Shown here one piece after another: positions 3,463-48,846 of a stretch of DNA of 64,000 nucleotides. The notes beneath the pieces are model-generated. The model saw nothing but the letters and a program-made list of their open reading frames with translations. It was not told the origin of the DNA and searched no databases. The stretch lies in the NCBI RefSeq assembly GCF_053078305.1, contig NZ_CP166879.1. The stretch is one strand, 5' to 3'. A program made the translations under genes and the position numbers. Numbering within the stretch: position 1 is the first letter of the stretch; the number at the start of each line of letters is the position of its first letter.

Positions 3463-4203
3463 ATGCTGCAAAATATTCGAATTGTGCTGGTGGAGACGTC
3501 ACACACCGGCAATATGGGTTCTGTTGCCCGTGCCATGAAAACAATGGGATTAACCAATCTGTGGCTGGTTAATCCACTGGTGAAACCTGACTCCCAGGCT
3601 ATTGCCCTGGCGGCGGGGGCCAGCGATGTGATTGGTAATGCTCACATCGTCGATACGCTCGACGAAGCGTTAGCCGGTTGTAGCCTGGTGGTGGGCACCA
3701 GCGCACGTTCCCGCACGCTGCCGTGGCCGATGCTCGACCCGCGCGAATGCGGTCTGAAAAGCGTCGCTGAAGCGGCAAATACCCCGGTGGCGCTGGTCTT
3801 TGGTCGCGAGCGCGTCGGCTTGACCAATGAAGAGTTGCAGAAATGCCATTATCATGTCGCGATTGCGGCAAACCCGGAATACAGTTCGCTGAACCTGGCA
3901 ATGGCGGTTCAGGTTATTGCCTATGAAGTGCGTATGGCCTGGCTGGCAACTCAGGAAAATGGCGAGCAGGTCGAGCATGAAGAGACGCCGTATCCGCTGG
4001 TCGATGATCTGGAGCGTTTTTATGGTCATCTGGAACAAACGCTGCTGGCAACCGGTTTTATCCGTGAAAACCATCCGGGGCAGGTGATGAATAAATTGCG
4101 CCGTCTGTTTACCCGTGCGCGCCCGGAAAGCCAGGAATTGAATATCCTGCGCGGGATTCTGGCTTCTATAGAGCAGCAGAATAAAGGTAATAAGGCCGAA
4201 TAA
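3463..4203 (+). CDS. trmJ: tRNA (cytidine/uridine-2'-O)-methyltransferase TrmJ
   Basis: 246-aa SPOUT-family ORF divergent from suhB. Confidence 0.9.
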
Positions 4204-4211
4204 CAGTGGTT

Positions 4212-4297
4212 GCCTGATGCGATGCTTAACGCGTCTTATCAGGCCTACAGTGAACAGAACCGTAGGTCGGATAAGGTGTTCACACCGCATCCGACAA
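4212..4297. repeat. REP/BIME palindromic elements downstream of trmJ
   Basis: GCCTGATGCGATGCTTAACGCGTCTTATCAGGCCTAC and GTAGGTCGGATAAGGTGTTCACACCGCATCCGACAA match REP consensus. Confidence 0.6.
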
Positions 4298-4337
4298 CAG
4301 GTACAAACGCCACGATAAAAAAATGGCACTGAAGGTT

Positions 4338-4403
4338 AAATACCCGACTAAATCAGTCAAGTAAATAGTTGACCAATTTACTCGGGAATGTCAGACTTGA
4401 CCC
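4338..4403 (+). promoter_or_regulatory. iscR promoter region with IscR type-1-like operator sequences
   Basis: AAATACCCGACTAAATCAGTCAAGTAAAT and following AT-rich repeat upstream of iscR; known autoregulation of isc operon. Confidence 0.45.
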
Positions 4404-4472
4404 TGCTATGCAATACCCCCACTTTTACAATAAAAAACCCCGGGCAGGGGCGAGTTTGAGGTGAAGTAAGAC

Positions 4473-4961
4473 ATGAGACTGACATCTAAAGGGCGCTATG
4501 CCGTGACCGCAATGCTTGACGTTGCGCTCAACTCTGAAGCGGGCCCGGTACCGTTGGCTGATATTTCCGAACGTCAGGGAATTTCCCTTTCTTATCTGGA
4601 ACAACTGTTTTCCCGTCTGCGTAAAAATGGTCTGGTTTCCAGCGTACGTGGACCAGGCGGTGGTTATCTGTTAGGCAAAGATGCCAGCAGCATCGCCGTT
4701 GGCGAAGTGATTAGCGCCGTTGACGAATCTGTAGATGCTACCCGTTGTCAGGGTAAAGGCGGTTGCCAGGGCGGCGATAAATGCCTGACCCACGCGCTGT
4801 GGCGTGATTTGAGCGACCGTCTCACCGGTTTTCTCAACAACATTACTTTAGGCGAACTGGTTAATAACCAGGAAGTGCTGGATGTGTCTGGTCGTCAGCA
4901 TACTCACGACGCGCCACGCACCCGCACACAAGACGCGATCGACGTTAAGTTACGCGCTTAA
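4473..4961 (+). CDS. iscR: Fe-S cluster assembly transcriptional regulator IscR
   Basis: 162-aa Rrf2-family ORF, first gene of isc operon. Confidence 0.95.
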
Positions 4962-5072: not shown

Positions 5073-6287
5073 ATGAAATTACCGATTTATCTCGACTACT
5101 CCGCAACCACGCCGGTGGACCCGCGTGTTGCCGAGAAAATGATGCAGTTTATGACGATGGACGGAACCTTTGGTAACCCGGCCTCCCGTTCTCACCGTTT
5201 CGGCTGGCAGGCTGAAGAAGCGGTAGATATCGCCCGTAATCAGATTGCCGATCTGGTCGGCGCTGATCCGCGTGAAATCGTCTTTACCTCTGGTGCAACC
5301 GAATCTGACAACCTGGCGATCAAAGGTGCAGCCAACTTTTATCAGAAAAAAGGCAAGCACATCATCACCAGCAAAACCGAACACAAAGCGGTACTGGATA
5401 CCTGCCGTCAGCTGGAGCGCGAAGGTTTCGAAGTCACCTACCTGGCACCGCAGCGTAACGGTATTATCGACCTGAAAGAACTCGAAGCGGCGATGCGTGA
5501 CGACACCATCCTCGTTTCTATCATGCACGTGAATAACGAAATCGGCGTGGTACAGGATATTGCGGCTATCGGCGAAATGTGCCGTGCTCGTGGCATTATC
5601 TATCACGTTGATGCAACCCAGAGCGTGGGCAAACTGCCTATCGACCTGAGCCAGTTGAAAGTTGACCTGATGTCTTTCTCCGGTCACAAAATCTATGGCC
5701 CGAAAGGTATCGGTGCGCTGTATGTGCGTCGTAAACCGCGCGTACGCATCGAAGCGCAAATGCACGGCGGCGGTCACGAACGCGGTATGCGTTCCGGCAC
5801 TCTGCCTGTTCACCAGATCGTCGGAATGGGCGAAGCCTATCGCATCGCAAAAGAAGAGATGGCGACCGAGATGGAACGTCTGCGCGGCCTGCGTAACCGT
5901 CTGTGGAACGGCATCAAAGATATCGAAGAAGTTTACCTGAACGGTGACCTGGAACACGGTGCGCCGAACATTCTCAACGTCAGCTTCAACTACGTTGAAG
6001 GTGAGTCGCTGATTATGGCGCTGAAAGACCTCGCGGTTTCTTCCGGTTCCGCCTGTACGTCAGCAAGCCTCGAACCGTCCTACGTGCTGCGCGCGCTGGG
6101 GCTGAACGACGAGCTGGCACATAGCTCTATCCGTTTCTCTTTAGGTCGTTTTACTACTGAAGAAGAGATCGACTACACCATCGAGTTAGTTCGTAAATCC
6201 ATCGGTCGTCTGCGTGACCTTTCTCCGCTGTGGGAAATGTACAAGCAGGGCGTGGATCTGAACAGCATCGAATGGGCTCATCATTAA
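5073..6287 (+). CDS. iscS: cysteine desulfurase IscS
   Basis: ORF track 5049..6287; recognised start [16 protein letters not shown] at 5073 with GGAG upstream; 404 aa. Confidence 0.95.
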
Positions 6288-6314
6288 TCGGTATCGGAAT
6301 CAGGAGAATTTATA

Positions 6315-6701
6315 ATGGCTTACAGCGAAAAAGTTATCGACCATTACGAGAATCCGCGTAACGTGGGTTCCTTTGACAACAACGACGAGAACGTCGGCAG
6401 CGGCATGGTGGGTGCACCGGCCTGTGGCGACGTGATGAAGTTGCAGATTAAAGTCAACGATGAAGGTATCATTGAAGACGCGCGTTTTAAAACTTACGGC
6501 TGCGGTTCCGCTATCGCTTCCAGCTCCCTGGTCACCGAATGGGTGAAAGGGAAGTCTCTCGACGAAGCGCAGGCGATCAAAAACACCGATATTGCTGAAG
6601 AACTTGAACTGCCGCCGGTGAAAATTCACTGTTCTATTCTGGCAGAAGACGCGATCAAAGCCGCCATTGCGGACTATAAAAGCAAACGTGAAGCAAAATA
6701 A
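6315..6701 (+). CDS. iscU: Fe-S cluster scaffold IscU
   Basis: 128-aa ORF MAYSEKVIDHYENPRNVG. Confidence 0.95.
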   Translation: MAYSEKVIDHYENPRNVGSFDNNDENVGSGMVGAPACGDVMKLQIKVNDEGIIEDARFKTYGCGSAIASSSLVTEWVKGKSLDEAQAIKNTDIAEELELPPVKIHCSILAEDAIKAAIADYKSKREAK

Positions 6702-6717
6702 GAGTTGAGGTTTGGTT

Positions 6718-7041
6718 ATGTCGATTACACTGAGCGACAGTGCAGCAGCGCGAGTAAATACCTTTCTGGCTAACCGCGGCAAAGGGTTTGGCCTGCGTCT
6801 GGGCGTGAGAACCTCCGGATGTTCAGGTATGGCTTATGTACTGGAATTTGTTGACGAACCGACGCCGGAAGACATCGTGTTTGAAGACAAAGGCGTGAAA
6901 GTCGTGGTCGATGGCAAAAGCCTGCAATTTCTGGACGGTACGCAGCTGGACTTCGTAAAAGAAGGCCTGAACGAAGGGTTTAAATTCACCAACCCGAACG
7001 TTAAAGATGAGTGTGGTTGCGGCGAAAGCTTCCACGTTTGA
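6718..7041 (+). CDS. iscA: Fe-S cluster insertion protein IscA
   Basis: ORF track starts at TTG 6712; ATG at 6718 gives [13 protein letters not shown], 107 aa. Confidence 0.9.
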
Positions 7042-7136
7042 TGCGCATACCGATAACCCCACCGTGGTCGCCTGCGCGTGGGGTTTGTTTTACCTGATTC
7101 GCCGTTATCGCGGCGGATCGCAGCCCTGAGAATGTT

Positions 7137-7652
7137 ATGGATTACTTCACCCTCTTTGGCTTGCCTGCCCGTTATCAACTCGATACCCAGGCGCTGAGCC
7201 TGCGTTTTCAGGATCTACAACGTCAGTATCATCCTGATAAATTCGCCAGCGGAAGCCAGGCGGAACAACTCGCCGCCGTACAGCAATCTGCAACCATTAA
7301 CCAGGCCTGGCAAACGCTGCGTCATCCGTTAATGCGCGCGGAATATTTGCTTTCTTTGCACGGCTTTGATCTCGCCAGCGAGCAGCATACTGTGCGCGAC
7401 ACCGCGTTCCTGATGGAACAGTTGGAGCTGCGCGAAGAGCTGGACGAGATCGAACAGGCGAAAGATGAAGCGCGGCTGGAAAGCTTTATCAAACGTGTGA
7501 AAAAGATGTTTGATACCCGCCATCAGTTGATGGTTGAACAGTTAGACAACGAGACCTGGGACGCGGCGGCGGATACCGTGCGTAAGCTGCGTTTTCTCGA
7601 TAAACTGCGAAGCAGTGCCGAACAACTCGAAGAAAAACTGCTCGATTTTTAA
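7137..7652 (+). CDS. hscB: co-chaperone HscB
   Basis: 171-aa J-domain ORF. Confidence 0.9.
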
Positions 7653-7668
7653 TTTCTGGAAGCTAAAC

Positions 7669-9519
7669 ATGGCCTTATTACAAATTAGTGAACCTGGTTT
7701 GAGTGCTGCGCCGCATCAGCGTCGTCTGGCGGCCGGTATTGACCTGGGCACAACCAACTCGCTGGTGGCGACAGTGCGCAGCGGTCAGGCCGAAACGTTA
7801 GCCGACCATGAAGGCCGTCACCTGCTGCCATCTGTTGTTCACTATCAACAGCAAGGGCATTCGGTGGGTTATGACGCGCGTACTAATGCAGCGCTCGATA
7901 CCGCCAACACAATTAGTTCTGTTAAACGCCTGATGGGACGCTCGCTGGCTGATATCCAGCAACGCTATCCGCATCTGCCTTATCAATTCCAGGCCAGCGA
8001 AAACGGCCTGCCGATGATTGAAACGGCGGCGGGGCTGCTGAACCCGGTGCGCGTTTCTGCGGACATCCTCAAAGCACTGGCGGCGCGGGCAACTGAAGCC
8101 CTGGCAGGCGAGCTGGATGGTGTAGTTATCACCGTTCCGGCGTACTTTGACGATGCCCAGCGTCAGGGCACCAAAGACGCGGCGCGTCTGGCGGGCCTTC
8201 ACGTCCTGCGCTTACTTAACGAACCGACCGCTGCGGCTATCGCCTACGGGCTGGATTCCGGTCAGGAAGGCGTGATCGCCGTTTATGACCTCGGTGGCGG
8301 GACGTTTGATATTTCCATTCTGCGCTTAAGTCGCGGCGTGTTTGAAGTGCTGGCAACCGGCGGTGATTCCGCGCTCGGCGGCGATGATTTCGACCATCTG
8401 CTGGCGGATTACATTCGCGAGCAGGCGGGCATTCCTGATCGTAGCGATAACCGCGTTCAGCGTGAACTGCTGGATGCCGCCATTGCAGCCAAAATCGCGC
8501 TGAGCGATGCGGACTCCGTGACCGTTAACGTTGCGGGCTGGCAGGGCGAAATCAGCCGTGAACAATTCAATGAACTGATCGCGCCACTGGTAAAACGAAC
8601 CTTACTGGCCTGTCGTCGCGCGCTGAAAGATGCGGGTGTTGAGGCTGACGAAGTACTGGAAGTGGTGATGGTGGGCGGTTCTACTCGCGTGCCGCTGGTG
8701 CGTGAACGGGTAGGCGAATTTTTCGGTCGTCCACCGCTGACTTCCATCGACCCGGATAAAGTCGTCGCTATTGGCGCGGCGATTCAGGCGGATATTCTGG
8801 TGGGTAACAAGCCAGACAGCGAAATGCTGTTGCTTGATGTGATCCCACTGTCGCTGGGCCTCGAAACGATGGGCGGCCTGGTGGAGAAAGTGATTCCGCG
8901 TAATACCACTATTCCGGTGGCCCGCGCTCAGGATTTCACCACCTTTAAAGATGGTCAGACGGCGATGTCTATCCATGTAATGCAGGGTGAGCGCGAACTG
9001 GTGCAGGACTGCCGCTCACTGGCGCGTTTTGCGCTGCGTGGTATTCCGGCGCTACCGGCTGGCGGTGCGCATATTCGCGTGACGTTCCAGGTCGATGCCG
9101 ACGGTCTTTTGAGCGTGACGGCGATGGAGAAATCCACCGGCGTTGAGGCGTCTATTCAGGTCAAACCGTCTTACGGTCTGACCGATAGCGAAATCGCTTC
9201 GATGATCAAAGACTCAATGAGCTATGCCGAGCAGGACGTAAAAGCCCGAATGCTGGCAGAACAAAAAGTAGAAGCGGCGCGTGTGCTGGAAAGTCTGCAC
9301 GGCGCGCTGGCTGCTGATGCCGCGCTGTTAAGCGCCGCAGAACGTCAGGTCATTGACGATGCTGCCGCTCACCTGAGTGAAGTGGCGCAGGGCGATGATG
9401 TTGACGCCATCGAACAAGCGATTAAAAACGTAGACAAACAAACCCAGGATTTCGCCGCTCGCCGCATGGACCAGTCGGTTCGTCGTGCGCTGAAAGGCCA
9501 TTCCGTGGACGAGGTTTAA
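7669..9519 (+). CDS. hscA: Fe-S cluster chaperone HscA (Hsp70 family)
   Basis: ORF track 7615..9519; recognised start [10 protein letters not shown] at 7669; 616 aa. Confidence 0.95.
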
Positions 9520-9520
9520 T

Positions 9521-9856
9521 ATGCCAAAGATTGTTATTTTGCCTCATCAGGATCTCTGCCCTGATGGCGCTGTTCTGGAAGCTAATAGCGGTGAAACCAT
9601 TCTCGACGCAGCGCTGCGTAACGGTATCGAGATTGAACACGCCTGTGAAAAATCCTGTGCTTGCACCACCTGCCACTGCATCGTTCGTGAAGGTTTTGAC
9701 TCACTGCCGGAAAGCTCAGAGCAGGAAGACGACATGCTGGACAAAGCCTGGGGACTGGAGCCGGAAAGCCGTTTAAGCTGCCAGGCGCGCGTCACCGACG
9801 AAGATTTAGTGGTCGAAATCCCGCGTTACACTATCAACCATGCGCGTGAGCATTAA
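9521..9856 (+). CDS. fdx: [2Fe-2S] ferredoxin Fdx
   Basis: 111-aa ORF with adrenodoxin-type Cys motif. Confidence 0.9.
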
Positions 9857-37477: not shown

Positions 37478-37559
37478 TTATTCAGTCGATAGTAACCCGC
37501 CCTTCGGGGATAGCAAGCATTTTTTGCAAAAAGGGGTAGATGCAATCGGTTACGCTCTG

Positions 37560-37565
37560 TATAAT
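37560..37565 (+). promoter_or_regulatory. guaB promoter -10 hexamer
   Basis: perfect TATAAT 44 bp upstream of guaB ATG; -35 not resolved. Confidence 0.4.
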
Positions 37566-37608
37566 GCCGCGGCAATATTTATTAACCACTCTGGTCGAGA
37601 TATTGCCC

Positions 37609-39075
37609 ATGCTACGTATCGCTAAAGAAGCTCTGACGTTTGACGACGTTCTCCTCGTTCCTGCTCATTCTACTGTTCTGCCGAATACTGCTGACCTCAG
37701 CACCCAGCTGACGAAAACTATTCGTCTGAATATCCCTATGCTTTCCGCAGCAATGGATACCGTAACGGAAGCGCGCCTGGCTATTGCTCTGGCTCAGGAA
37801 GGCGGTATCGGCTTTATCCACAAAAACATGTCCATTGAACGCCAGGCAGAAGAAGTTCGCCGTGTGAAAAAACACGAATCTGGCGTGGTGACTGATCCGC
37901 AGACTGTTCTGCCAACCACGACGCTGCGCGAAGTGAAAGAACTGACCGAGCGTAACGGTTTTGCGGGCTATCCGGTCGTTACCGAAGAAAACGAACTGGT
38001 GGGTATTATCACCGGTCGTGACGTGCGTTTTGTTACCGACCTGAACCAGCCGGTTAGCGTTTACATGACGCCGAAAGAGCGTCTGGTCACCGTGCGTGAA
38101 GGTGAAGCCCGTGAAGTGGTGCTGGCAAAAATGCACGAAAAACGCGTTGAAAAAGCGCTGGTGGTTGATGACGAATTCCACCTGATCGGCATGATCACCG
38201 TGAAAGATTTCCAGAAAGCGGAACGTAAACCGAACGCCTGTAAAGACGAGCAAGGCCGTCTGCGTGTTGGTGCTGCAGTTGGCGCAGGTGCGGGTAACGA
38301 AGAGCGTGTTGACGCGCTGGTTGCCGCTGGCGTTGACGTTCTGCTGATCGACTCCTCCCACGGTCACTCAGAAGGCGTTTTGCAGCGTATCCGTGAAACC
38401 CGTGCTAAATATCCGGATCTGCAAATCATCGGCGGCAACGTGGCAACAGCTGCAGGTGCACGCGCTCTGGCAGAAGCTGGTTGCAGCGCGGTTAAAGTCG
38501 GTATCGGCCCTGGTTCTATCTGTACGACTCGTATCGTTACTGGCGTAGGTGTTCCGCAGATCACTGCCGTTGCTGACGCAGTTGAAGCCCTGGAAGGCAC
38601 CGGTATTCCGGTTATCGCAGATGGTGGTATTCGCTTCTCCGGCGACATCGCCAAAGCTATCGCCGCTGGCGCAAGCGCGGTGATGGTAGGTTCCATGCTG
38701 GCGGGTACTGAAGAATCTCCGGGTGAAATCGAACTCTACCAGGGCCGTTCTTACAAATCTTACCGTGGTATGGGTTCCCTGGGCGCGATGTCCAAAGGTT
38801 CCTCTGACCGTTATTTCCAGAGCGATAACGCTGCCGACAAACTGGTGCCGGAAGGTATCGAAGGTCGCGTAGCTTATAAAGGTCGCCTGAAAGAGATCAT
38901 TCACCAGCAGATGGGCGGCCTGCGCTCCTGTATGGGTTTGACCGGCTGTGGTACTATCGACGAACTGCGTACTAAAGCGGAGTTTGTACGTATCAGCGGT
39001 GCGGGCATTCAGGAAAGCCACGTTCACGACGTGACCATTACTAAAGAGTCCCCGAACTACCGTCTGGGCTCCTGA
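37609..39075 (+). CDS. guaB: IMP dehydrogenase GuaB
   Basis: ORF track 37540..39075; recognised start [21 protein letters not shown]; 488 aa. Confidence 0.95.
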
Positions 39076-39143: not shown

Positions 39144-40721
39144 ATGACGGAAAACATTCATAAGCATCGCATCCTCATTCTGGACTTCGGTTCTCAGTAC
39201 ACTCAACTGGTTGCGCGCCGCGTGCGTGAGCTGGGTGTTTACTGCGAACTGTGGGCGTGGGATGTGACAGAAGCACAAATTCGTGACTTCAATCCAAGCG
39301 GCATTATTCTTTCCGGCGGCCCGGAAAGTACTACTGAAGAAAACAGTCCGCGTGCGCCGCAGTATGTCTTTGAAGCAGGCGTACCGGTATTCGGCGTTTG
39401 CTATGGCATGCAGACCATGGCAATGCAGTTGGGCGGTCACGTTGAAGCCTCTAACGAACGTGAATTTGGCTACGCGCAGGTTGAAGTCGTAAACGACAGC
39501 GCACTGGTTCGCGGTATCGAAGATGCGCTGACCGCAGACGGTAAACCGCTGCTCGATGTCTGGATGAGCCACGGCGATAAAGTTACCGCTATCCCGTCCG
39601 ACTTCGTCACCGTAGCCAGCACCGAAAGCTGCCCGTTTGCCATTATGGCTAACGAAGAAAAACGCTTCTATGGCGTACAGTTCCACCCGGAAGTGACTCA
39701 CACCCGCCAGGGTATGCGCATGCTGGAGCGTTTTGTGCGTGATATCTGCCAGTGTGAAGCCCTGTGGACGCCAGCGAAAATTATCGACGATGCTGTAGCT
39801 CGCATCCGCGAGCAGGTAGGCGACGATAAAGTCATCCTCGGCCTCTCTGGTGGTGTGGATTCCTCCGTAACCGCAATGCTGCTGCACCGCGCTATCGGTA
39901 AAAACCTGACTTGCGTATTCGTCGACAACGGCCTGCTGCGTCTCAACGAAGCAGAGCAGGTTCTGGATATGTTTGGCGATCACTTTGGTCTTAACATTGT
40001 TCACGTACCGGCAGAAGATCGCTTCCTGTCAGCGCTGGCTGGCGAAAACGATCCGGAAGCAAAACGTAAAATCATCGGTCGCGTTTTCGTTGAAGTATTC
40101 GATGAAGAAGCGCTGAAACTGGAAGACGTGAAGTGGCTGGCACAGGGCACCATCTACCCTGACGTTATCGAATCTGCGGCGTCTGCAACCGGTAAAGCAC
40201 ACGTCATCAAATCTCACCACAACGTGGGCGGCCTGCCGAAAGAGATGAAGATGGGCCTGGTTGAACCGCTGAAAGAGCTGTTCAAAGACGAAGTGCGTAA
40301 GATTGGTCTGGAGCTGGGTCTACCGTACGACATGCTGTACCGTCACCCGTTCCCGGGACCAGGCCTTGGCGTTCGTGTTCTGGGTGAAGTGAAGAAAGAG
40401 TACTGTGACCTGCTGCGCCGTGCTGACGCCATCTTCATTGAAGAACTGCGTAAAGCGGATCTGTACGACAAAGTCAGCCAGGCGTTCACCGTCTTCCTGC
40501 CAGTACGTTCCGTTGGCGTAATGGGCGATGGTCGTAAGTATGACTGGGTTGTCTCTCTGCGTGCTGTCGAAACCATCGACTTTATGACCGCACACTGGGC
40601 GCATCTGCCGTACGATTTCCTCGGTCGCGTTTCCAACCGCATTATCAATGAAGTGAACGGTATTTCCCGCGTGGTGTATGACATCAGCGGCAAGCCGCCA
40701 GCTACCATTGAGTGGGAGTGA
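39144..40721 (+). CDS. guaA: GMP synthase (glutamine-hydrolysing) GuaA
   Basis: 525-aa ORF, GATase and ATP-PPase (SGGVDSSV) motifs. Confidence 0.95.
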
Positions 40722-40760
40722 GGCTATTATTTAAACTATTGTTTTATTTGATTTAGTGAG

Positions 40761-40800
40761 TGCCATTGATGATATTGACTGCATTATCAATGGCATTTTT
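40761..40800 (+). terminator. guaA terminator
   Basis: imperfect stem TGCCATTGATGAT / ATTATCAATGGCA followed by ATTTTT. Confidence 0.5.
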
Positions 40801-41105
40801 CATGGTATAAGGCCGACGCTGAATCGAAGATATAGCAAATACCATGTGACTGTATCAGCAAATGCCATGGTATCGACAACCGGGGGCATTGCAGCGCTGT
40901 GCTGATGCCATCGATGCCCGCTTTTAGTCAGAACACTCTCTCGACCCAAGCCTCCAGATCCTTAAATATGCGCCAGAGGAGCACCTCGTGATCGAAATTA
41001 TGAACAAGACAGCCGCCGCTCGGAATCGAAGTCTCCATATGGGTGAATAAGGTTTGCGGAAAACACGCTGAGAAAATAGAAAAGCGTCAATGAAGGGACA
41101 TAGCA

Positions 41106-42386
41106 ATGGCGATTAACGGAGTGGACGGTGTTAGCGCAGTCACCGTGGATGAACTACTCAAGCAAGGCCTTCGGATACCGAACTATCAACGCCCATACAG
41201 TTGGGAAGTATCGACCGCTCTACAACTGGTGGATGATCTCAGCGAAGCTCTTCGAGATACCGAAAGAAAAGATATTCCCTATGTTTTGGGTGCAATCATT
41301 CTTCACGATGATGGTGAGTATCTCAATGTAGTCGACGGACAGCAACGTCTGCTGACTTTGCGAATGATTCTTGCGGCCTTAGATCCGATAAATCACCAAA
41401 TTTCGGTGTCTGGTAACAGAGAAACCTCTGTCTCCCTGGTTTGGATAGAGCTTCAAAGGCGCCTGTCGCAGTTGGAAGATAAAAAAGAATTTTTGGATTT
41501 TATCTGTCACAAATGTCAGTTGGTGCGTATTGTGACGGACGATATTGATGAGGCATTCCGTGTCTTTGATTCCCAGAACTATCGCGGCAAACCGCTTGCC
41601 CCTCATGACTTGCTCAAAGCACACCACCTGCGCGAAATGCACGATGAGTCCGCTGCTATGAAAGTGGCTGTCGTTGAGGCTTGGGAAGCCGTAAATGATG
41701 AGGATCTGGACAGGCTTTTTTCTACTTTTTTATACCGGATATCCAAGTGGTCACGAGGAGAAAGCTCGCTCGAATTTGCTATTCGGGACATCGGTATGTT
41801 CAAGGGAATTTCATCACGATCCCACAGATCATTTTCGCCAAATCTGCGATATCACCTTGCAGCACAAGCCGCTATGCCACTTCTAAGTGCATGGGCGGTG
41901 TCCTCGACACATGATGCTCGAAATGCCGGGCGCAGCCGCTTTCAGCTTGATGCCCCGATAATCGCTGGGCGCTCATTTTTCGAGATGGTGGCATTCATGC
42001 TTGACGAATTGAAGATACTGGAAAAAGAGGTTATCGACAAAGGTTTCAAAAACTTTGGCCCATCTCAAAGTCGCTACCGCTACGTGTACGAATTGTTCAT
42101 TGCCGCTCTGCTTTGCTATACAAACAAGTTTGGCGATGAAGATGTGGATGAAGTGCGAAATAGGTTATTCGCATGGGCATATGCCTTGCGGGTCGAGTTA
42201 CTTCGTGTGCAATTTGTATCTGCTGACAACCGAGCTCGAGGTAAAAACGATGCAAATAAATCGCCTTTTGTTTTGCTACGCAACGCGATGACTGGAAGTG
42301 TTGTCCGCAAACTTCCAATAGCAAGTCAGCCATACAACGATAACCACGAAAAGGAACTCATTGCTTTTATCAAGGGGCTGCAATGA
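41106..42386 (+). CDS. DUF262-like (ParB/Srx-fold, GmrS-like) protein without nuclease domain; first gene of accessory two-gene cassette
   Basis: 426 aa; N-terminal IPNYQRPYSW and DGQQRL motifs at ~aa 25-80, later FDSQNYRGKPL motif; SD AAGGGA upstream; stop overlaps next start. Confidence 0.8.
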   Translation: MAINGVDGVSAVTVDELLKQGLRIPNYQRPYSWEVSTALQLVDDLSEALRDTERKDIPYVLGAIILHDDGEYLNVVDGQQRLLTLRMILAALDPINHQISVSGNRETSVSLVWIELQRRLSQLEDKKEFLDFICHKCQLVRIVTDDIDEAFRVFDSQNYRGKPLAPHDLLKAHHLREMHDESAAMKVAVVEAWEAVNDEDLDRLFSTFLYRISKWSRGESSLEFAIRDIGMFKGISSRSHRSFSPNLRYHLAAQAAMPLLSAWAVSSTHDARNAGRSRFQLDAPIIAGRSFFEMVAFMLDELKILEKEVIDKGFKNFGPSQSRYRYVYELFIAALLCYTNKFGDEDVDEVRNRLFAWAYALRVELLRVQFVSADNRARGKNDANKSPFVLLRNAMTGSVVRKLPIASQPYNDNHEKELIAFIKGLQ

Positions 42387-44335
42387 GCAAGAAGGAGTTG
42401 AAACCCGAACTGCTAACAGTAGGCAAGCTATTCACGGACAATTATCTGATTCCTATTTATCAACGGAACTATGCTTGGCGGGCCGAACAGATTGAGCAAC
42501 TTATCAGCGATATTCAAGACTCGGTTGTTGGGGGCCAGGACGACTATTTTCTTGGAAACCTTGTTGTAATCAAGCGGGGTAGAGAGGACGAGTTCGAGGT
42601 CATAGATGGACAACAACGACTTACAACCCTCTATCTGCTTCTGACCTTCCTGGAGCAAGACGGTGAGGGTGGGAAGCCGTCGATTGGCCATGCAGGCCAC
42701 TTGCAATATGAGTCGCGTGCACGGGCAACGGAAGCCCTGCGGCGAGTAGCACAGGAGGCGGCTAAGGGGCACGTCCGACCGCAGGGCTCCACGAGTAATG
42801 CAGATGCTGGCATCCATGAAGGCTACAGCATCATCAATCAGTTCTTCAAACAAAATGAAACCCTTAATTGCTCACGCGAAAAATTCTCCGATTTCTTGCT
42901 AACGAAGGTTACTGTCGTCCGTGCCTCGCTGCCACCCAATACAGATCTCAATCGCTACTTCGAGATCATGAACACTCGTGGGCAGCAACTCAAGCAGGTT
43001 GATATTGTTAAGGCTCGCCTGATGAGCAAGCTGCCCAATCAATATGAACGCGAATGCTTCGCCTGGGTTTGGGATGCCTGTGCTGAGATGGATTCTTATG
43101 TCCAGATGTCTCTGACCCGTGGTGACACCAGTTTGCGAAACAAAGTATTTGGCGATGAATGGTCCTGGCTGGAGGTGACCAGCTTCGCGTCGTTAATGGA
43201 AAGTCGTCCGCAATCCGGCATCAATTCTTCAAGGCAATCCTCCGAAGGGGTATCGTTGTCCTTGGATGAGGCGTTGTCAAAATACGCTAAAGAGATCGAG
43301 TCAAATTCCACTGAAGACGAGGGCAACGAGCGGTTTCGTTCGACTATTGAGTTTCCGGCCTTTCTGCTACACGTTCTAAGAATTATGAAAGGCGATGAGG
43401 TCGAAGACGAAGGCCAGCTTGACGACAAACGCCTCATCAAGTCATTTGACGACGCTGTAAATAATGTACCCGATGCTAAAGCCGATTGGGTGCGTAACTT
43501 TACATTCATGCTCCTCAAGTGCCGCAACCTCTTCGATGGCTTCATTTTGAAGCGTCAATTCACGGCGAACATCGGTGACGATGGCGATTGGTCTCTCCAG
43601 CGATTGAAGAAAGGCGGCGCGGACAAGAAGCCAACCCCGACGTATATCCATGTTTTCTCGGCCAGCAATGGAAACTTAGAGGAGGACGGCGGTGCTGACC
43701 CACATACCCGAGATGTATTGCTGCTTCAGTCCATGCTTCGGATAACCTACACTTCTCCGCGAACGATGCACTGGATTACCAAAGTTCTTCGCTGGCTATC
43801 CGTCAAAGCCCCTCAAGACGCGAAACATGCGGATCTTGCCGATTTGTTGAAGGGGTATGCCCGCAGCAAGGTCAAAGAGACATTCCCCTTTGAGGAAGAT
43901 CAGCAACCACAAGGGTTTGGTATCAGCCGCATCGTCTTTTCGTATCTCGACTATCTTCTGTTGAGCGATTCCTCAAAACGAGATTTCAAATTTCAGTTCA
44001 GAACTTCCATTGAGCACTTTTATCCACAGCATCCGGACAAAGAACAGTCGGGCGCGGTTGTTTCAGGTTCTAGCCTTAACCTGCTTGGCAACCTTGCGCT
44101 CGTAAGCGTCAGCGCGAACTCAAAATTCAGCAATAGCCTTCCCAGAGCGAAGGCCGAAAACTTCAAGGATACGATTGAACTTCAAAGTCCCAAGCTCAAG
44201 AGAATGGCGGAAATCACTCGAAATACAAGCTGGGACGATCAGCAGATAACAGCTCATCATGAAGAGATGGTGACATTGCTTCGTGATGATGTAAGTCTGG
44301 TGGAGGCAAGCGGAAGATCCTACCCGGGGCGTTGA
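42383..44335 (+). CDS. GmrSD/SspE-like protein: N-terminal DUF262-like domain fused to C-terminal DUF1524-like His-Me finger nuclease domain (putative modification-dependent or defence endonuclease)
   Basis: 650 aa; IPIYQRNYAW and DGQQRLTTL motifs; FEIMNTRGQQL; C-terminal SIEHFYPQHP ... GNLALVSVSANSKFSN. Confidence 0.8.
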   Translation: MSKKELKPELLTVGKLFTDNYLIPIYQRNYAWRAEQIEQLISDIQDSVVGGQDDYFLGNLVVIKRGREDEFEVIDGQQRLTTLYLLLTFLEQDGEGGKPSIGHAGHLQYESRARATEALRRVAQEAAKGHVRPQGSTSNADAGIHEGYSIINQFFKQNETLNCSREKFSDFLLTKVTVVRASLPPNTDLNRYFEIMNTRGQQLKQVDIVKARLMSKLPNQYERECFAWVWDACAEMDSYVQMSLTRGDTSLRNKVFGDEWSWLEVTSFASLMESRPQSGINSSRQSSEGVSLSLDEALSKYAKEIESNSTEDEGNERFRSTIEFPAFLLHVLRIMKGDEVEDEGQLDDKRLIKSFDDAVNNVPDAKADWVRNFTFMLLKCRNLFDGFILKRQFTANIGDDGDWSLQRLKKGGADKKPTPTYIHVFSASNGNLEEDGGADPHTRDVLLLQSMLRITYTSPRTMHWITKVLRWLSVKAPQDAKHADLADLLKGYARSKVKETFPFEEDQQPQGFGISRIVFSYLDYLLLSDSSKRDFKFQFRTSIEHFYPQHPDKEQSGAVVSGSSLNLLGNLALVSVSANSKFSNSLPRAKAENFKDTIELQSPKLKRMAEITRNTSWDDQQITAHHEEMVTLLRDDVSLVEASGRSYPGR

Positions 44336-44632
44336 CTTCTTTGAATAACCGCTTTTGGACGAATGTCCCTTGTGGAGTGCAAGTTGTCAGTTTAAAAGTG
44401 TTTTGCGTCGGGCGACACGATCAGTACAGCTCCCAGGTTTTTTTACCATGGTATTTTGTGTGGTATCGACATGCAAAGATAATGCTATTTTGTTGATTTT
44501 ATAGTGTTTTAAGGCGGCATTGATCATCGAGTGGGAATAAACCCTGTACATATTGCTGAAGTTTTCTTTTCGGATAAAACTTCAGCAGATTTTCACAGCA
44601 AACCCCTCTTATCTCTGGAGGTTTTTTTTACG

Positions 44633-44667
44633 CAAATTAAAAACCCATAACTCTCACGAATCATGGG
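44633..44667 (-). terminator. yfgI terminator
   Basis: minus-strand hairpin CCCATGATTCGTGAGAGTTATGGG followed by T-rich run. Confidence 0.4.
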
Positions 44668-44686
44668 CTTTGTGGTAGAAAGACGA

Positions 44687-45226
44687 TTAATTAAACCAAC
44701 CGTCCGATTTATTCTCTTCTGCTTTACCCACGCTTTTCATCAAATCGCGACCGCCTTCTGTCACATTTCTGTTAGCGTCAGCTTCAGATTGCACGACATC
44801 AGTTTGCGCGGCTTTGTGCTTCAGCTCCTGGTCGATAAACTCGTTCTCTCGCTTAACGCGGGCTTCTTCTTTCGCCAGCGCCAGCTTTTGTTTCTGAATC
44901 TCTAAGCTGCGCAGCTCATCTTCATAACTTTGATCGCGTTTTTTATCCGCGGTGGCTTCGGCGTCCAGTTTATCCTGACGAGCTTTCTTATCCGCTGCTG
45001 CTGCCGCCGCTCTTTTGTTAGCGGCGGCCTGGGCATTTGCGCGACGTTGCTTCTCTTGCTGGATTTCCCTGTTGCGCTCCGCGACCCATTCGTCATGCTG
45101 CCTTTGCTCTTCATTTTTACCTTGCTGTTCCGCTTCTGCGACAGCAGAGAGTTGATCCTGCAATGATGAGGCGATAGCCGGATAGCTTAAGGAGACCAAG
45201 ATGGCGCAAAGAAAAACTTTCTTCAT
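44687..45226 (-). CDS. yfgI: secreted coiled-coil protein YfgI
   Basis: 179-aa ORF with signal peptide and charged coiled-coil; synteny. Confidence 0.8.
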   Translation of the reverse strand: MKKVFLCAILVSLSYPAIASSLQDQLSAVAEAEQQGKNEEQRQHDEWVAERNREIQQEKQRRANAQAAANKRAAAAAADKKARQDKLDAEATADKKRDQSYEDELRSLEIQKQKLALAKEEARVKRENEFIDQELKHKAAQTDVVQSEADANRNVTEGGRDLMKSVGKAEENKSDGWFN

Positions 45227-45241
45227 GACTCCTCCTGATTA

Positions 45242-45760
45242 TTAGCTCTTTTCAGGACATTTGGTATTTGGCTGAATACGCGTTTCGTTATACGTCGTGG
45301 TAATAACAACGGCTAAACCTGTCGTAAACTGGCACTCTTTACCCACCTGAGTAGAGGTATACACTTTGGTGCCTTCCTTATACGTTAAAGAAACACCTTC
45401 CACTAAGGTTTTATCATTCACCATAGAACCCGCTGCCGCGCCTACAGCTCCGCCGCCAACTGCACCTGCCGTCGTTCCGGAATTGCTGCCAGACCCGACG
45501 TTGTGGCCGATAACACCGCCAGCGACTGCGCCAATAAGCGCGCCGAAGGCTTGTGCGTTCCGTTTATTTTGGGAGTTGTCTACGGCAACTTTTGCGGGAA
45601 GAATGGAAATAATATTAACGGTTTTAGTTTCTTGTTTGGTATTCAGTTGATCGGTTTGATAAACATCGGCGGCATGATCGTCAGCATTTGACTGGCATCC
45701 TGCCAGAGTGAATGACGCTAACATTGCCACAGGCAGAAGACATTTTTTAAATTTCATCAC
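45242..45760 (-). CDS. yfgH: glycine-zipper outer membrane lipoprotein YfgH
   Basis: 172-aa ORF, lipobox LAGC, Gly-rich GAxxG repeats. Confidence 0.8.
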   Translation of the reverse strand: MMKFKKCLLPVAMLASFTLAGCQSNADDHAADVYQTDQLNTKQETKTVNIISILPAKVAVDNSQNKRNAQAFGALIGAVAGGVIGHNVGSGSNSGTTAGAVGGGAVGAAAGSMVNDKTLVEGVSLTYKEGTKVYTSTQVGKECQFTTGLAVVITTTYNETRIQPNTKCPEKS

Positions 45761-46059
45761 TATTCCTTGTTATACACATTACGAAAAATAAGACATTTAA
45801 GATCATCAAAAGAGGAAAGTAAATGTATTGCGTATAAAGGGATAGATTAAATTTATTAAAATTCACGTGGGGAATAATTTATGAAAACACATCATTACAA
45901 CATATATATTAATTTTGCAGCCAAACAGGATAAACATCAGTCAGGACAAAGACGTAAAATTTAAGATGAAAGAATATCTGCCGCTTTGATAATTCCAAAG
46001 AGCAAAAGCATCCGACAGCGAAGCGCCGTTATGTTCTGTGAAAGTGGAGAAGGTAACCG

Positions 46060-46251
46060 CTAACGTTGTACCGGTGATTCGACGGAGAGTGTGGATTGCT
46101 GAGCTTCTTTTTTGCTCTGATGGTGCTGCCAGGCACCGACGGACGAGTAGATAAAACGGCCAAAGAAGAAGATAAAGCTGATGAGCAGTACGATACGGGT
46201 CATGCGACTGTTAAATCGGTGTCGTTTTCGCATACTGGTTGCCTGACTCAC
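46060..46251 (-). CDS. yfgG: small membrane protein YfgG
   Basis: 63-aa ORF with single TM segment; synteny. Confidence 0.65.
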   Translation of the reverse strand: MSQATSMRKRHRFNSRMTRIVLLISFIFFFGRFIYSSVGAWQHHQSKKEAQQSTLSVESPVQR

Positions 46252-46461
46252 AAAAGGTTCCTTGAAGTATGTCCCACGCTGTGGACGGTACTTACATTAA
46301 GGCACAACAGGACAAAATGGTCAATTCTTCGTTATGTAAAAAAGCGTCAGTGGATACATATTTTAATGTTATGGAAGTTAATTTAATTATTTACAATGAT
46401 GATGTAATAATGATGAATTAACATGATAAACGTAATAATTCATTAATCAGGGTTATTTTGT

Positions 46462-46475
46462 TTGATATATATCAA
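46462..46475 (+). promoter_or_regulatory. FNR binding site upstream of pdeF
   Basis: TTGATATATATCAA is a perfect TTGAT-N4-ATCAA palindrome 128 bp upstream of pdeF start. Confidence 0.5.
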
Positions 46476-46602
46476 TTGGAACTTTCATATGACACTTAGA
46501 ATCAATGCTCTCTATAGTGATGAATAATCATCATTCGAAGTCAGGTGGGATGCCTGTCTGAATACACCTCCTTCAGGATGTGGGGGATTCTGCTGAGCAT
46601 CT

Positions 46603-48846
46603 ATGAAACTGAATGCAACTTATATAAAAATACGTGATAAATGGTGGGGGCTTCCGCTGTTCCTGCCTTCTTTAATCTTGCCCATTTTCGCCCACATTAA
46701 TACTTTCGCGCATATTTCTTCCGGTGAGGTTTTTCTCTTTTATCTGCCTTTGGCACTGATGATCAGCATGATGATGTTTTTCAGCTGGGCGGCATTGCCA
46801 GGGATCGCCTTAGGGATTTTTGTCCGCAAATATGCAGAGCTTGGTTTTTACGAAACGCTCTCATTAACGGCTAATTTTATTATCATTATCATTCTCTGTT
46901 GGGGCGGTTACAGGGTCTTTACTCCCCGCCGTAACAACGTTTCACATGGTGATACCCGTTTAATTTCCCAGCGTATATTCTGGCAGATTGTGTTTCCTGC
47001 AACGCTGTTTCTGATACTTTTCCAGTTTGCTGCGTTTGTAGGATTACTGGCGAGCAGAGAAAATCTGGTCGGCGTCATGCCTTTTAACCTCGGGACCTTA
47101 ATCAATTATCAGGCCTTACTGGTGGGTAATCTGATCGGTGTCCCGCTGTGCTACTTCATCATTCGGGTAGTGCGAAATCCATTTTATTTACGTAGCTATT
47201 ATTCGCAATTAAAACAGCAGGTTGATGTCAAAGTCACCAAAAAAGAGTTCGCACTCTGGCTACTGGCATTAGGTGCTTTACTGTTGCTGTTATGCATGCC
47301 GTTAAATGAAAAAAGCACAATTTTTAGCACCAATTATACCTTGTCATTATTGCTGCCCCTGATGATGTGGGGAGCGATGCGCTATGGTTATAAGCTGATT
47401 TCGCTGCTCTGGGCGGTCGTGTTGATGATCAGCATCCACAGCTATCAAAATTACATTCCCATTTATCCTGGCTATACCACGCAGCTGACCATAACCTCCT
47501 CCAGTTATCTGGTATTCTCTTTTATTGTCAATTATATGGCTGTACTGGCAACCCGTCAGAGAACGGTAGTCAGACGCATTCAGCGGCTTGCGTATGTGGA
47601 CCCGGTGGTTCATCTGCCAAATGTTCGCGCCCTGAATCGCGCGTTGCGTGATGCCCCCTGGTCTGCGCTTTGTTATTTACGCATCCCTGGCATGGAAATG
47701 CTGGTTAAGAACTATGGCATCATGCTGCGGATTCAATACAAGCAAAAACTTTCTCACTGGCTGTCACCCTTGCTGGAACCGGGTGAAGATGTTTATCAGC
47801 TTTCGGGTAACGATCTCGCGCTGCGACTGAATACAGAATCGCACCAGGAGCGCATTGCCGCACTGGATAGCCATCTCAAGCAATTTCGTTTCTTTTGGGA
47901 TGGCATGCCGATGCAACCGCAGATTGGCGTCAGTTACTGCTATGTGCGCTCGCCAGTGAATCATATCTACCTGCTGCTGGGAGAGCTAAATACGGTCGCC
48001 GAACTTTCCATCGTGACCAACGCCCCGGAAAATATGCAGCGTCGCGGGGCAATGTATTTGCAACGCGAATTGAAAGATAAAGTCGCGATGATGAATCGAC
48101 TACAGCAGGCGCTGGAACACAACCATTTTTTCCTGATGGCCCAGCCGATTACCGGTATGCGTGGTGATGTTTACCATGAAATTCTTCTGCGCATGAAAGG
48201 TGAGAATGATGAACTGATCGGCCCCGATAGCTTCTTGCCGGTCGCGCACGAATTTGGTTTATCGTCGAGTATCGACATGTGGGTCATTGAGCATACGCTG
48301 CAATTTATGGCTGAAAACAGAGCGAAGATGCCCGCTCACCGTTTTGCTATTAATCTGTCTCCAACCTCGGTATGTCAGGCTCGTTTTCCTGTTGAAGTCA
48401 GTCAGTTGCTGGATAAATATCAGATTGAAGCGTGGCAACTTATTTTTGAAGTCACCGAAAGTAATGCTCTGACCAATGTTAAGCAGGCGCAAATCACCTT
48501 GCAGCATCTTCAGGAATTAGGCTGCCAGATTGCGATTGATGATTTCGGCACCGGCTACGCCAGCTATGCGCGGCTTAAAAATGTGAATGCCGATCTGCTT
48601 AAAATTGACGGCAGTTTTATCCGCAATATTGTGTCAAATAGTCTGGATTATCAGATAGTGGCATCGATTTGCCACCTGGCGCGAATGAAGAAAATGCGGG
48701 TAGTGGCAGAGTACGTTGAAAACGAAGAGATCCGCGAGGCGGTGCTCTCTTTGGGGATCGATTATATGCAGGGTTATCTTATTGGTAAGCCGCAGCCGTT
48801 AATTGATACGTTGAATGAAATCGAACCCATTCGCGAAAGTGCCTGA
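46603..48846 (+). CDS. pdeF: c-di-GMP phosphodiesterase PdeF (YfgF); MASE1 membrane domain, degenerate GGDEF, EAL
   Basis: 747-aa ORF with multi-TM N-terminus and EAL-domain motifs. Confidence 0.85.
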   Translation: MKLNATYIKIRDKWWGLPLFLPSLILPIFAHINTFAHISSGEVFLFYLPLALMISMMMFFSWAALPGIALGIFVRKYAELGFYETLSLTANFIIIIILCWGGYRVFTPRRNNVSHGDTRLISQRIFWQIVFPATLFLILFQFAAFVGLLASRENLVGVMPFNLGTLINYQALLVGNLIGVPLCYFIIRVVRNPFYLRSYYSQLKQQVDVKVTKKEFALWLLALGALLLLLCMPLNEKSTIFSTNYTLSLLLPLMMWGAMRYGYKLISLLWAVVLMISIHSYQNYIPIYPGYTTQLTITSSSYLVFSFIVNYMAVLATRQRTVVRRIQRLAYVDPVVHLPNVRALNRALRDAPWSALCYLRIPGMEMLVKNYGIMLRIQYKQKLSHWLSPLLEPGEDVYQLSGNDLALRLNTESHQERIAALDSHLKQFRFFWDGMPMQPQIGVSYCYVRSPVNHIYLLLGELNTVAELSIVTNAPENMQRRGAMYLQRELKDKVAMMNRLQQALEHNHFFLMAQPITGMRGDVYHEILLRMKGENDELIGPDSFLPVAHEFGLSSSIDMWVIEHTLQFMAENRAKMPAHRFAINLSPTSVCQARFPVEVSQLLDKYQIEAWQLIFEVTESNALTNVKQAQITLQHLQELGCQIAIDDFGTGYASYARLKNVNADLLKIDGSFIRNIVSNSLDYQIVASICHLARMKKMRVVAEYVENEEIREAVLSLGIDYMQGYLIGKPQPLIDTLNEIEPIRESA

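What the first reader, a model, noticed from the sequence alone, without database searches (positions are those of the whole stretch)
43950..44150. C-terminal His-Me finger nuclease signature in the 650-aa protein
Residues near the C-terminus read FQFRTSIEHFYPQHPDKEQ...LNLLGNLALVSVSANSKFSNSLP. The E-H pair followed by a GNL...N..K..N element matches the DUF1524 / HNH-like beta-beta-alpha metal finger of GmrD-type nucleases. This is what makes the second gene a likely effector rather than a partition ParB-like protein.
Basis: partly seen in the sequence, partly recalled or inferred. Interest (0 to 1): 0.6.

Follow-up and report, generated by a model that had tools for sequence, protein, structure and literature searches.

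The report
TgvAB-type two-gene Type IV restriction
The motif is real: the 650-aa protein ends in a conserved DUF1524 His-Me finger nuclease domain, and with the gene upstream it forms a published two-protein anti-phage restriction system (TgvAB / GmrS-GmrSD doublet), so the finding is correct but ordinary.

Summary
Residues 521-631 of the 650-aa ORF (window 42383-44335) match Pfam GmrSD_C/DUF1524 (E 1e-13). S542, E544, H545, P548, G569, N570 and N579 are invariant in 50 homologues. AlphaFold puts H545 at the end of a strand and N579 in the following helix. The best structural matches are SspE, DndI and BrxU.

The ORF overlaps by 4 bp an upstream 426-aa gene (DUF262 + DUF7834, no nuclease motif). 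This pair has the architecture of Vibrio cholerae TgvAB and the E. coli ECOR17 GmrS1/GmrSD2 doublet, and aligns with both over full length at 25-33% identity. H545 and N579 align with TgvB H571 and N602, whose mutation abolishes defence.

Near-identical proteins are already listed as TgvAB hits (Vizzarro 2024) and as clusters CLS_016/017 (Nat Commun 2025). The modification it targets is not known from the text I could read.

Side note: the 3.8-kb module sits in the guaA-yfgI spacer, bounded by the only two GAGTGGGA octamers in the window. That is the att core used by GIsul2-family integrases. The same module is on about 450 Klebsiella plasmids.

The parts
40710..40717 (+). Left GAGTGGGA core, within the last codons of guaA (..GAG TGG GAG TGA). 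This is the left boundary of the inserted module.
   Evidence: Homology to empty-site E. coli ends at 40721. It is one of only two GAGTGGGA octamers in the 64-kb window. GAGTGGGA is the published att core of GIsul2-family integrases at the guaA 3' end (PMC9376610).
40722..41105 (+). Non-coding leader of the module. It contains a 13-nt-arm hairpin (40761-40795) just after the guaA stop and presumably the operon promoter.
   Evidence: No ORF of 60 aa or more on the + strand. Inverted repeat I9. The simple sigma-70 scan found no + strand promoter, so the promoter is not located.
41106..42386 (+). Gene A (426 aa), TgvA/GmrS1-like: DUF262 (residues 19-175) plus DUF7834 (residues 186-414), with no nuclease motif.
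41334..41348 (+). DGQQR NTPase motif of protein A (residues 77-81).
   Evidence: Motif position. D77, G78 and R81 are invariant and Q79, Q80 are at least 90% conserved in 89 homologues.
42383..44335 (+). Gene B (650 aa), TgvB/GmrSD2-like: DUF262, a helical linker, then the DUF1524 nuclease. Its start overlaps the stop of A by 4 bp (ATGA).
   Evidence: 25% identity over full length to V. cholerae TgvB, E 1e-40. 33% identity over full length to ECOR17 GmrSD2, E 1e-87.
42605..42619 (+). DGQQR NTPase motif of protein B (residues 75-79).
   Evidence: D75, G76, Q77, Q78 and R79 are invariant in 50 homologues.
43943..44275 (+). GmrSD_C / DUF1524 domain of B (residues 521-631).
44006..44134 (+). His-Me finger core: S542-I-E544-H545-F-Y-P548 ... 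G569-N570-L ... N579-S-K-F-S-N584.
   Evidence: Invariant residues. Strand 542-545, strand 571-574, helix 576-582 in the model. H545 and N579 align with TgvB H571 and N602.
44529..44536 (+). Right GAGTGGGA core, the right boundary of the module. It is preceded by a diverged guaA-3'-end-like stretch (44511-44536).
   Evidence: Homology to Klebsiella plasmids ends at about 44535 and to Kluyvera chromosomes at about 44540. Direct repeat D4. Octamer census.

Best explanation
Window 41106-44335 encodes a two-protein, modification-dependent (Type IV) restriction system of the GmrSD family. It is of the TgvAB / GmrS1-GmrSD2 doublet type. Protein A (DUF262 + DUF7834) and protein B (DUF262 + helical linker + DUF1524) are made from one translationally coupled operon. 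They most likely act as a hetero-complex. Their ParB-like DUF262 domains bind and hydrolyse NTP (DGQQR motif) and couple recognition of hypermodified phage DNA to activation of the C-terminal His-Me finger of B. In that finger H545 would act as the general base, with E544 beside it and N579 holding the metal, and it cuts the invading DNA. Shown here: the domains, the motifs, their conservation, the predicted fold, full-length homology to two experimentally validated doublets, a conserved gene pair, and purifying selection. Inferred: complex formation, the requirement for both proteins, NTP dependence, and the DNA modification recognised. Glucosyl- or arabinosyl-hydroxymethylcytosine of T-even-like phages is the default guess, taken from the two characterised relatives.
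For: Domains. Invariant catalytic and NTPase residues. Predicted beta-beta-alpha layout. Structural neighbours SspE, DndI and BrxU. Profile match to the nuclease motifs of DndI and SspE. End-to-end alignments: TgvB (E 1e-40, H545=H571, N579=N602), TgvA, ECOR17 GmrSD2 (33% identity, E 1e-87) and GmrS1 (30% identity, E 2.5e-55). Single-chain CT596 GmrSD and BrxU match only in the DUF262 N-terminus. V. cholerae TgvA has the same GmrSD_N + DUF7834 architecture and overlaps tgvB. The A+B pair with the 4-bp overlap recurs in Janthinobacterium, Nocardioides and Kluyvera. dN/dS against the Klebsiella plasmid copy is 0.15 for A and 0.12 for B. Near-identical pairs are in the authors' TgvAB hit table. 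The E. coli proteins WP_001625657/WP_001625659 are in clusters CLS_016/CLS_017, a pairing consistent with one of the three 'two-gene' GmrSD systems. Experimental behaviour of the relatives comes from PMC11411939, PMC11014532 and PMC12373910.
Against: Identity to the two characterised doublets is only 25-33%, so substrate specificity cannot be transferred with confidence. Another doublet, GrwAB, also restricts phages with 7-deazaguanine modifications (PMC12409362). No experimental result for this cluster could be read. The 2025 paper tested representatives of all 15 groups and found 5 more active, but which ones is shown only in figures. No promoter was located. NCBIfam has no model for either protein. 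The AF2 model of B is only moderate (pLDDT 77.6), and global TM-scores to PDB relatives are low (0.22-0.29) because domain orientations differ.
Confidence: 0.85

Rival explanations
1. B is a self-sufficient single-chain GmrSD enzyme. A is a dispensable paralogue, for example a decoy for phage inhibitors such as Ip proteins, or a regulator, rather than an obligatory subunit.
For: B has every domain of a fused GmrSD. Single-chain GmrSD, BrxU and HEC-06 work alone. Vizzarro et al. themselves raise the inhibitor-decoy idea for TgvA. In two loci A is disrupted by an IS while B stays intact (L003; L010).
Against: In both tested doublets neither protein protects alone, and the DGQQR motif of A is required. 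A is under purifying selection (dN/dS 0.15). A is conserved with a 4-bp overlap across phyla. The DGQQR motif of A is conserved in 89 homologues.
Confidence: 0.08
2. The pair is a phosphorothioate-sensing effector like SspE or DndI. It would nick or cut DNA according to the PT status set by a partner modification system.
For: The best PDB matches by sequence profile and by fold are DndI and SspE. PADLOC models Orf5 and SspE also hit.
Against: Those hits are mainly to the shared DUF262 domain. No ssp or dnd genes flank the pair: the neighbours are guaA and yfgI. The module travels as a bare 2-gene unit in E. coli, Kluyvera and Klebsiella plasmids. Full-length homology is to TgvB and GmrSD2, not to SspE or DndI. 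SspE and DndI have not been described with a DUF7834 partner.
Confidence: 0.04
3. The system acts by abortive infection or toxicity. The nuclease would degrade host as well as phage DNA once triggered, killing the cell.
For: Co-overexpression of the ECOR17 doublet is grossly toxic. TgvAB cultures show partial lysis at high MOI with some phages.
Against: TgvAB-expressing cultures keep growing at MOI up to 5 with Bas35, and the authors interpret this as direct defence. Escape depends on loss of phage DNA glucosylation, which points to direct recognition of phage DNA.
Confidence: 0.03
4. It is a ParB-like partition or plasmid-maintenance protein pair, the alternative the first reader wanted to exclude.
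For: DUF262 belongs to the ParB N-terminal superfamily. The model has weak structural hits to ParB domains. The module lies near sopAB on Klebsiella plasmids.
Against: A conserved nuclease domain is present. The plasmids have their own SopA and ParB. No centromere-like repeats were found in the module. The module also occurs in chromosomes.
Confidence: 0.01

Closest known systems
TgvAB (VC1767/VC1766) of Vibrio cholerae VPI-2
   Same: Two co-oriented overlapping genes. A is DUF262 + DUF7834 and B is DUF262 + DUF1524. A and B align end to end. QR, DGQQR and FxxxN-type motifs are present in both proteins. The catalytic H and metal-binding N align with H571 and N602. Near-identical relatives of the window pair are in the authors' TgvAB hit list.
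   Different: Only 25-26% identity. The overlap is 4 bp instead of 8 bp. A is 426 aa against 470 aa. The pair is not embedded in a Type I R-M operon but stands alone next to guaA. Its substrate is untested.
GmrS1/GmrSD2 doublet of E. coli ECOR17 (CLS_003/004; inhibited by T4 Ip3)
   Same: Same doublet architecture. It is the closest characterised relative: B 33% identity (E 1e-87) and A 30% identity (E 2.5e-55). The nuclease motif is almost the same (SVEHFSPQHP...FGNLCLISHSKNSRLSN) and E582/H583 are required.
   Different: It belongs to a different sequence cluster (the window pair is CLS_016/017). GmrSD2 is 680 aa and GmrS1 is 483 aa. Whether Ip3 or any other internal protein inhibits the window system is unknown.
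Single-chain GmrSD (EcoCT596 / Eco94GmrSD), BrxU and HEC-06
   Same: Same two Pfam domains in one chain and the same (D/E)H...N...N nuclease motif (DHIYP in BrxU, EHICP in HEC-06). PADLOC HEC-06 models are the top hits. BrxU is a structural neighbour.
   Different: These enzymes act alone. Pairwise similarity to CT596 GmrSD and BrxU is limited to the first 90 residues or so. They have no DUF7834 partner.
SspE and DndI (phosphorothioate-sensing DUF262-DUF1524 effectors)
   Same: Best solved-structure matches. The same DUF262 NTPase and DUF1524 nuclease, including the IEHxxPQ...GNLxLL...N motif.
   Different: They work with Ssp or Dnd modification genes, which are absent here. About 14-17% identity in structural alignments. 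They are single proteins.
GrwAB of WASA V. cholerae
   Same: Also a two-protein GmrSD-like system that needs both partners.
   Different: The gene order is reversed and the partner has a different, longer C-terminus. [quoted passage not shown] It was not compared by sequence here.

Membership tests
[quoted passage not shown] | N-terminal DUF262/ParB-like NTPase domain with QR, DGQQR and FxxxN motifs | tested here: met
   B: GmrSD_N E 2e-33, with YQRNY at 26, DGQQR at 75 and FEIMNTRG at 193-200, invariant in 50 homologues. A: GmrSD_N E 1e-27, with YQRPY at 27, DGQQR at 77 and FDSQN at 154.
[quoted passage not shown] | C-terminal DUF1524 domain with the H...N...H/N His-Me finger motif on a beta-beta-alpha fold | tested here: met
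[quoted passage not shown] | Cleavage of modified but not unmodified DNA, stimulated or controlled by NTP | not testable with these tools
   This needs phage assays and biochemistry.
TgvAB / GmrS-GmrSD doublet systems | Two adjacent, co-oriented genes. The first encodes DUF262 without a nuclease (with DUF7834). The second encodes DUF262 + DUF1524. | tested here: met
   V. cholerae TgvA/TgvB have the same Pfam architecture and overlap each other. A and B share only the DUF262 domain in a profile-profile comparison. No conserved His/Asn nuclease motif is present in 89 homologues of A.
TgvAB / GmrS-GmrSD doublet systems | Full-length homology of each partner to the corresponding validated protein, with catalytic residues in register | tested here: met
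   B against TgvB E 1e-40, and H545/N579 align with H571/N602. A against TgvA E 3e-28. B and A against the ECOR17 pair E 1e-87 and 2.5e-55.
TgvAB / GmrS-GmrSD doublet systems | Detected by the authors' own family models or clusters | tested here: met
   Table S5 of PMC11411939 lists pairs from Shimwellia, Pectobacterium and Klebsiella plasmids that contain 15- to 16-residue peptides identical to the window proteins, and whose visible N-terminal sequence is near-identical. WP_001625657 and WP_001625659, the RefSeq proteins at this E. coli islet, are in CLS_016 and CLS_017 of PMC12373910.
TgvAB / GmrS-GmrSD doublet systems | Both proteins required; restriction of T-even-type phages with sugar-modified hydroxymethylcytosine | not testable with these tools
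   Shown for V. cholerae TgvAB and the ECOR17 doublet. No readable result exists for this cluster.
TgvAB / GmrS-GmrSD doublet systems | Embedding in a Type I R-M operon. This gave the system its name but it is not universal: 1,341 stand-alone hits against 79 embedded. | tested here: not met
   Here the neighbours are guaA and yfgI. A 68%-identical homologue lies downstream of an hsdR gene and a YgjP-like gene. The authors do not treat embedding as defining.
SspE / DndI phosphorothioate-dependent effectors | Genetic linkage to sspABCD or dndBCDE modification genes | tested here: not met
   The module is a bare 2-gene unit in every context examined. I did not annotate the rest of the 64-kb window gene by gene.
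GIsul2-type integrative element (side observation only) | Insertion at the guaA 3' end, flanked by direct GAGTGGGA att cores | tested here: met
   The core sequence is from PMC9376610. The full 19-bp att sites were not compared.
GIsul2-type integrative element (side observation only) | Carries its own tyrosine integrase | tested here: not met
   The only two ORFs of 100 aa or more between the cores that have any family support are A and B.

The most novel reading that the evidence does not exclude
The 3.8-kb A+B module (window 40718-44536) is an integrase-less 'defence cassette' bounded by GIsul2-type att sites. Integrases of guaA-targeting genomic islands would move it in trans, as shown for the CR2-sul2 unit. 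That would explain why the same module sits at the guaA 3' end in E. coli and Kluyvera and, with the same GAGTGGG(A/T) ends but non-guaA flanks, on about 450 Klebsiella plasmids. A second open point is that this clade (CLS_016/017) may recognise a DNA modification different from that of TgvAB or the ECOR17 doublet.
Probability: 0.35. Interest if true: 0.45.

Novelty: already known. Interest (0 to 1): 0.15.

Why it matters
It matters little as a discovery. The domain is in Pfam, the two-protein architecture has been characterised twice (V. cholerae TgvAB; E. coli ECOR17 GmrS1/GmrSD2), and proteins nearly identical to these are already listed in both papers' supplementary tables. The practical value is annotation. 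RefSeq calls both genes only 'DUF262 domain-containing protein' and NCBIfam has no model, so this islet can be labelled a TgvAB-type Type IV restriction system. About 1.4% of complete E. coli genomes carry it. It is also on many clinical Klebsiella IncF-type plasmids, which is relevant to phage therapy with T4-like phages. The att-bounded cassette structure is the only part that might add something new.

Tried and rejected
- NCBIfam: no family for either protein.
- Rfam on 40000-46700: nothing at gathering threshold.
- Sigma-70 and terminator scan: no + strand promoter upstream of gene A. Only the native-type terminator at 44605-44621 was found, and counts were below shuffle expectation.
- Phage genomes: no phage carries the pair. 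There is one weak DUF262-only hit. PHROGs gives only unknown-function DUF262-type families.
- Foldseek global TM-scores are low (0.22-0.29) despite significant E-values. I attribute this to different relative domain orientation, as the HEC-06 authors also report.
- I tried to find out whether CLS_016/017 was one of the five additional active systems in PMC12373910. The information is only in figure images, so I could not determine it.
- Terminal inverted repeats of the module (transposon hypothesis): none convincing. The direct GAGTGGGA cores fit site-specific recombination better.
- Vizzarro Table S5 sequences are cut at about 400 residues in the held copy. I recovered full-length TgvB through a database search with its N-terminal part and TgvA from a V. 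cholerae contig.

Full report
**Setting.** The window is Escherichia coli chromosome. guaB (37540-39075) and guaA (39144-40721) lie upstream. yfgI (44687-45226, minus strand), yfgH, yfgG, pdeF and ppx lie downstream. In K-12 and most E. coli, guaA and yfgI are separated by a 92-bp spacer. Here that spacer is replaced by about 3.9 kb holding two + strand genes. Gene A is 41106-42386 (426 aa) and gene B is 42383-44335 (650 aa). They overlap by 4 bp, ATGA. Only 78 of 5,426 complete E. coli genomes carry this insert at 80% coverage or more. RefSeq labels both products only 'DUF262 domain-containing protein'.

**The observation.**
- Pfam GmrSD_C (PF07510, the former DUF1524) matches residues 521-631 with E 1.1e-13. 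GmrSD_N (DUF262) matches residues 14-214 with E 2.2e-33.
- I aligned 50 homologues at 24-98% identity, taken from two database searches. S542, E544, H545, P548, G569, N570, L571, L573, S575 and N579 are invariant. N584 is at least 90% conserved.
- An AlphaFold2 model built on that alignment (pLDDT 77.6) places residues 542-545 in a strand ending at H545. A second strand follows at 571-574 and a helix at 576-582 carries N579. This is the beta-beta-alpha-metal layout.
- Foldseek against the PDB returns DndI (9jfl, 7e-11), SspE (7drr and 6jiv, about 1e-9) and BrxU (7p9k, 7e-3), then noise.
- A profile of the family also aligns its motif with the EH..P...GN...N motifs of DndI and SspE, with domain E about 0.02 on top of strong N-terminal hits.

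**What the thing is.** Protein A has DUF262 (residues 19-175, E 1e-27) followed by Pfam DUF7834 (residues 186-414, E 6e-55). It has a DGQQR motif but no conserved His/Asn nuclease motif in 89 homologues. Its model is confident (pLDDT 93.5). Its structural neighbours are again SspE, DndI and BrxU. In a profile-profile comparison A and B share only the DUF262 domain.

A nuclease-less DUF262 protein followed by an overlapping DUF262-DUF1524 protein is the published architecture of V. cholerae TgvAB (PMC11411939; PMC11014532). I recovered full-length TgvB and the V. cholerae locus. TgvA there is also GmrSD_N + DUF7834 and overlaps tgvB.
- Window B aligns with TgvB from residue 6 to 633 (25% identity, E 1e-40). 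H545 is opposite TgvB H571 and N579 opposite TgvB N602. H571A and N602A abolish defence.
- Window A aligns with TgvA (26% identity, E 3e-28).

A second validated doublet is GmrS1/GmrSD2 of E. coli ECOR17 (PMC12373910). I rebuilt its sequences from the paper's supplementary alignments.
- It is the closest characterised relative: B 33% identity over full length (E 1e-87) and A 30% identity (E 2.5e-55).
- Single-chain CT596 GmrSD and BrxU match only in the first 90 residues or so.

**Already catalogued.** Table S5 of Vizzarro et al. lists pairs from Shimwellia, Pectobacterium and Klebsiella plasmids as TgvAB hits. These contain 15- to 16-residue peptides identical to the window proteins, and their visible N-terminal sequence is near-identical. 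The RefSeq proteins at this very E. coli islet are WP_001625657 and WP_001625659. Both appear in clusters CLS_016 and CLS_017 of the 2025 Nat Commun paper. That paper describes three two-gene GmrSD systems among the 20 commonest enterobacterial clusters. It reports synthesising and testing representatives of all 15 groups. The figure showing which extra five were active is not readable with these tools.

**Conservation and function.** The A+B pair with the 4-bp overlap recurs in several taxa.
- Janthinobacterium: downstream of an hsdR gene and a YgjP-like gene.
- Nocardioides, an actinobacterium.
- Kluyvera.

The TgvA-like family is large, with 413 clusters at 50% identity at E below 1e-30. 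Against the Klebsiella plasmid copy (96% nucleotide identity), dN/dS is 0.15 for A and 0.12 for B. None of the five C-terminal substitutions touches the motif. The genes are therefore intact and under purifying selection.

**Mechanism.** The best-supported model comes from the relatives, and I mark it as inference. A and B act together. The DGQQR NTPase sites of both are needed. Hypermodified phage DNA is recognised, and the His-Me finger of B cuts it. The substrate is the weakest step. TgvAB and the ECOR17 doublet target glucosylated or arabinosylated hmC phages. Another doublet, GrwAB, also restricts 7-deazaguanine-modified phages. This clade is only 25-33% identical to the tested ones.

**Rivals.**
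- B acting alone: disfavoured by genetics in both relatives and by selection on A.
- A phosphorothioate-dependent SspE/DndI-like role: no ssp or dnd partners in any context.
- Abortive infection: TgvAB cultures survive high MOI.
- A ParB partition role: excluded by the conserved nuclease domain.

**Side observation on mobility.**
- Homology to empty-site E. coli stops at 40721 and resumes at 44684.
- The only two GAGTGGGA octamers in the 64-kb window, on either strand, lie at 40710-40717 and 44529-44536, in direct orientation.
- The first octamer is in the last codons of guaA, whose reading frame and stop are preserved as GAG TGG GAG TGA.
- Homology to Kluyvera chromosomes ends at the second core. 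There the module also follows guaA but has a different right flank.
- Homology to 454 Klebsiella plasmids (95.7% identity, mostly conjugative) also ends at that core. Their flanks are not guaA, yet the same GAGTGGGA and GAGTGGGT ends are present.
- GAGTGGGA is the published core of the 19-bp att sites used by GIsul2-family integrases at the guaA 3' end. That integrase can move the integrase-less CR2-sul2 unit in trans (PMC9376610).
- The module carries no integrase. It therefore looks like an att-bounded defence cassette. This is plausible but untested, and I did not compare the full 19-bp att sites.

**Verdict.** The finding is correct in both observation and interpretation. It describes a member of a known, experimentally characterised family that has already been catalogued, so interest is low.

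Noticed in passing
window 40710-40717 and 44529-44536: The only two GAGTGGGA octamers in the 64-kb window bracket the two-gene module in direct orientation. They sit exactly where homology to empty-site E. coli, Kluyvera chromosomes and Klebsiella plasmids starts and stops. GAGTGGGA is the att core of GIsul2-family integrases that target the guaA 3' end, and the module has no integrase, so it may be a cassette mobilised in trans.
   Followed up: partly
window 40722-44535; L009 (NZ_CP022824.1) 6001-9812: The same 3.8-kb module is present at 95.7% identity on 454 PLSDB plasmids, almost all from Klebsiella and mostly conjugative. In the plasmid examined (IncFIB) it lies between an IS1 remnant near sopAB and a umuDC-like operon.
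   Followed up: partly
L010 (Kluyvera, GCA_046532915.1) 1862-4857: In one Kluyvera genome a roughly 3-kb insert disrupts gene A at about codon 45 while gene B stays intact. The insert carries a class A beta-lactamase gene and a 420-aa DDE transposase, like an ISEcp1-bla unit.
   Followed up: partly
L003 1929-4577: In a metagenomic relative of the Janthinobacterium locus, gene A is split by a Transposase_mut IS. This is a second independent case of A being disrupted with B intact.
   Followed up: no
window 40761-40795: A 13-nt-arm hairpin (TGCCATTGATGAT...ATTATCAATGGCA) followed by a T-run lies inside the module just after the guaA stop. It may replace the native guaA terminator, which is now displaced to 44605-44621.
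   Followed up: no
window 40500-40721 versus 44684-44900: The left flank (guaA 3' end) is 99.5% identical to K-12, but the right flank (yfgI) is only 92.6% identical. The 150 bp between the right att core and yfgI is a diverged version of the K-12 spacer. This jump in divergence suggests the region was exchanged by recombination with a distant lineage.
   Followed up: no
window 44511-44536: The right end of the module contains a diverged copy of the last 26 nt of guaA (73% identity, coding ..IEWE). The copy is also present in the plasmid and Kluyvera versions, as expected for an attP-derived arm.
   Followed up: partly
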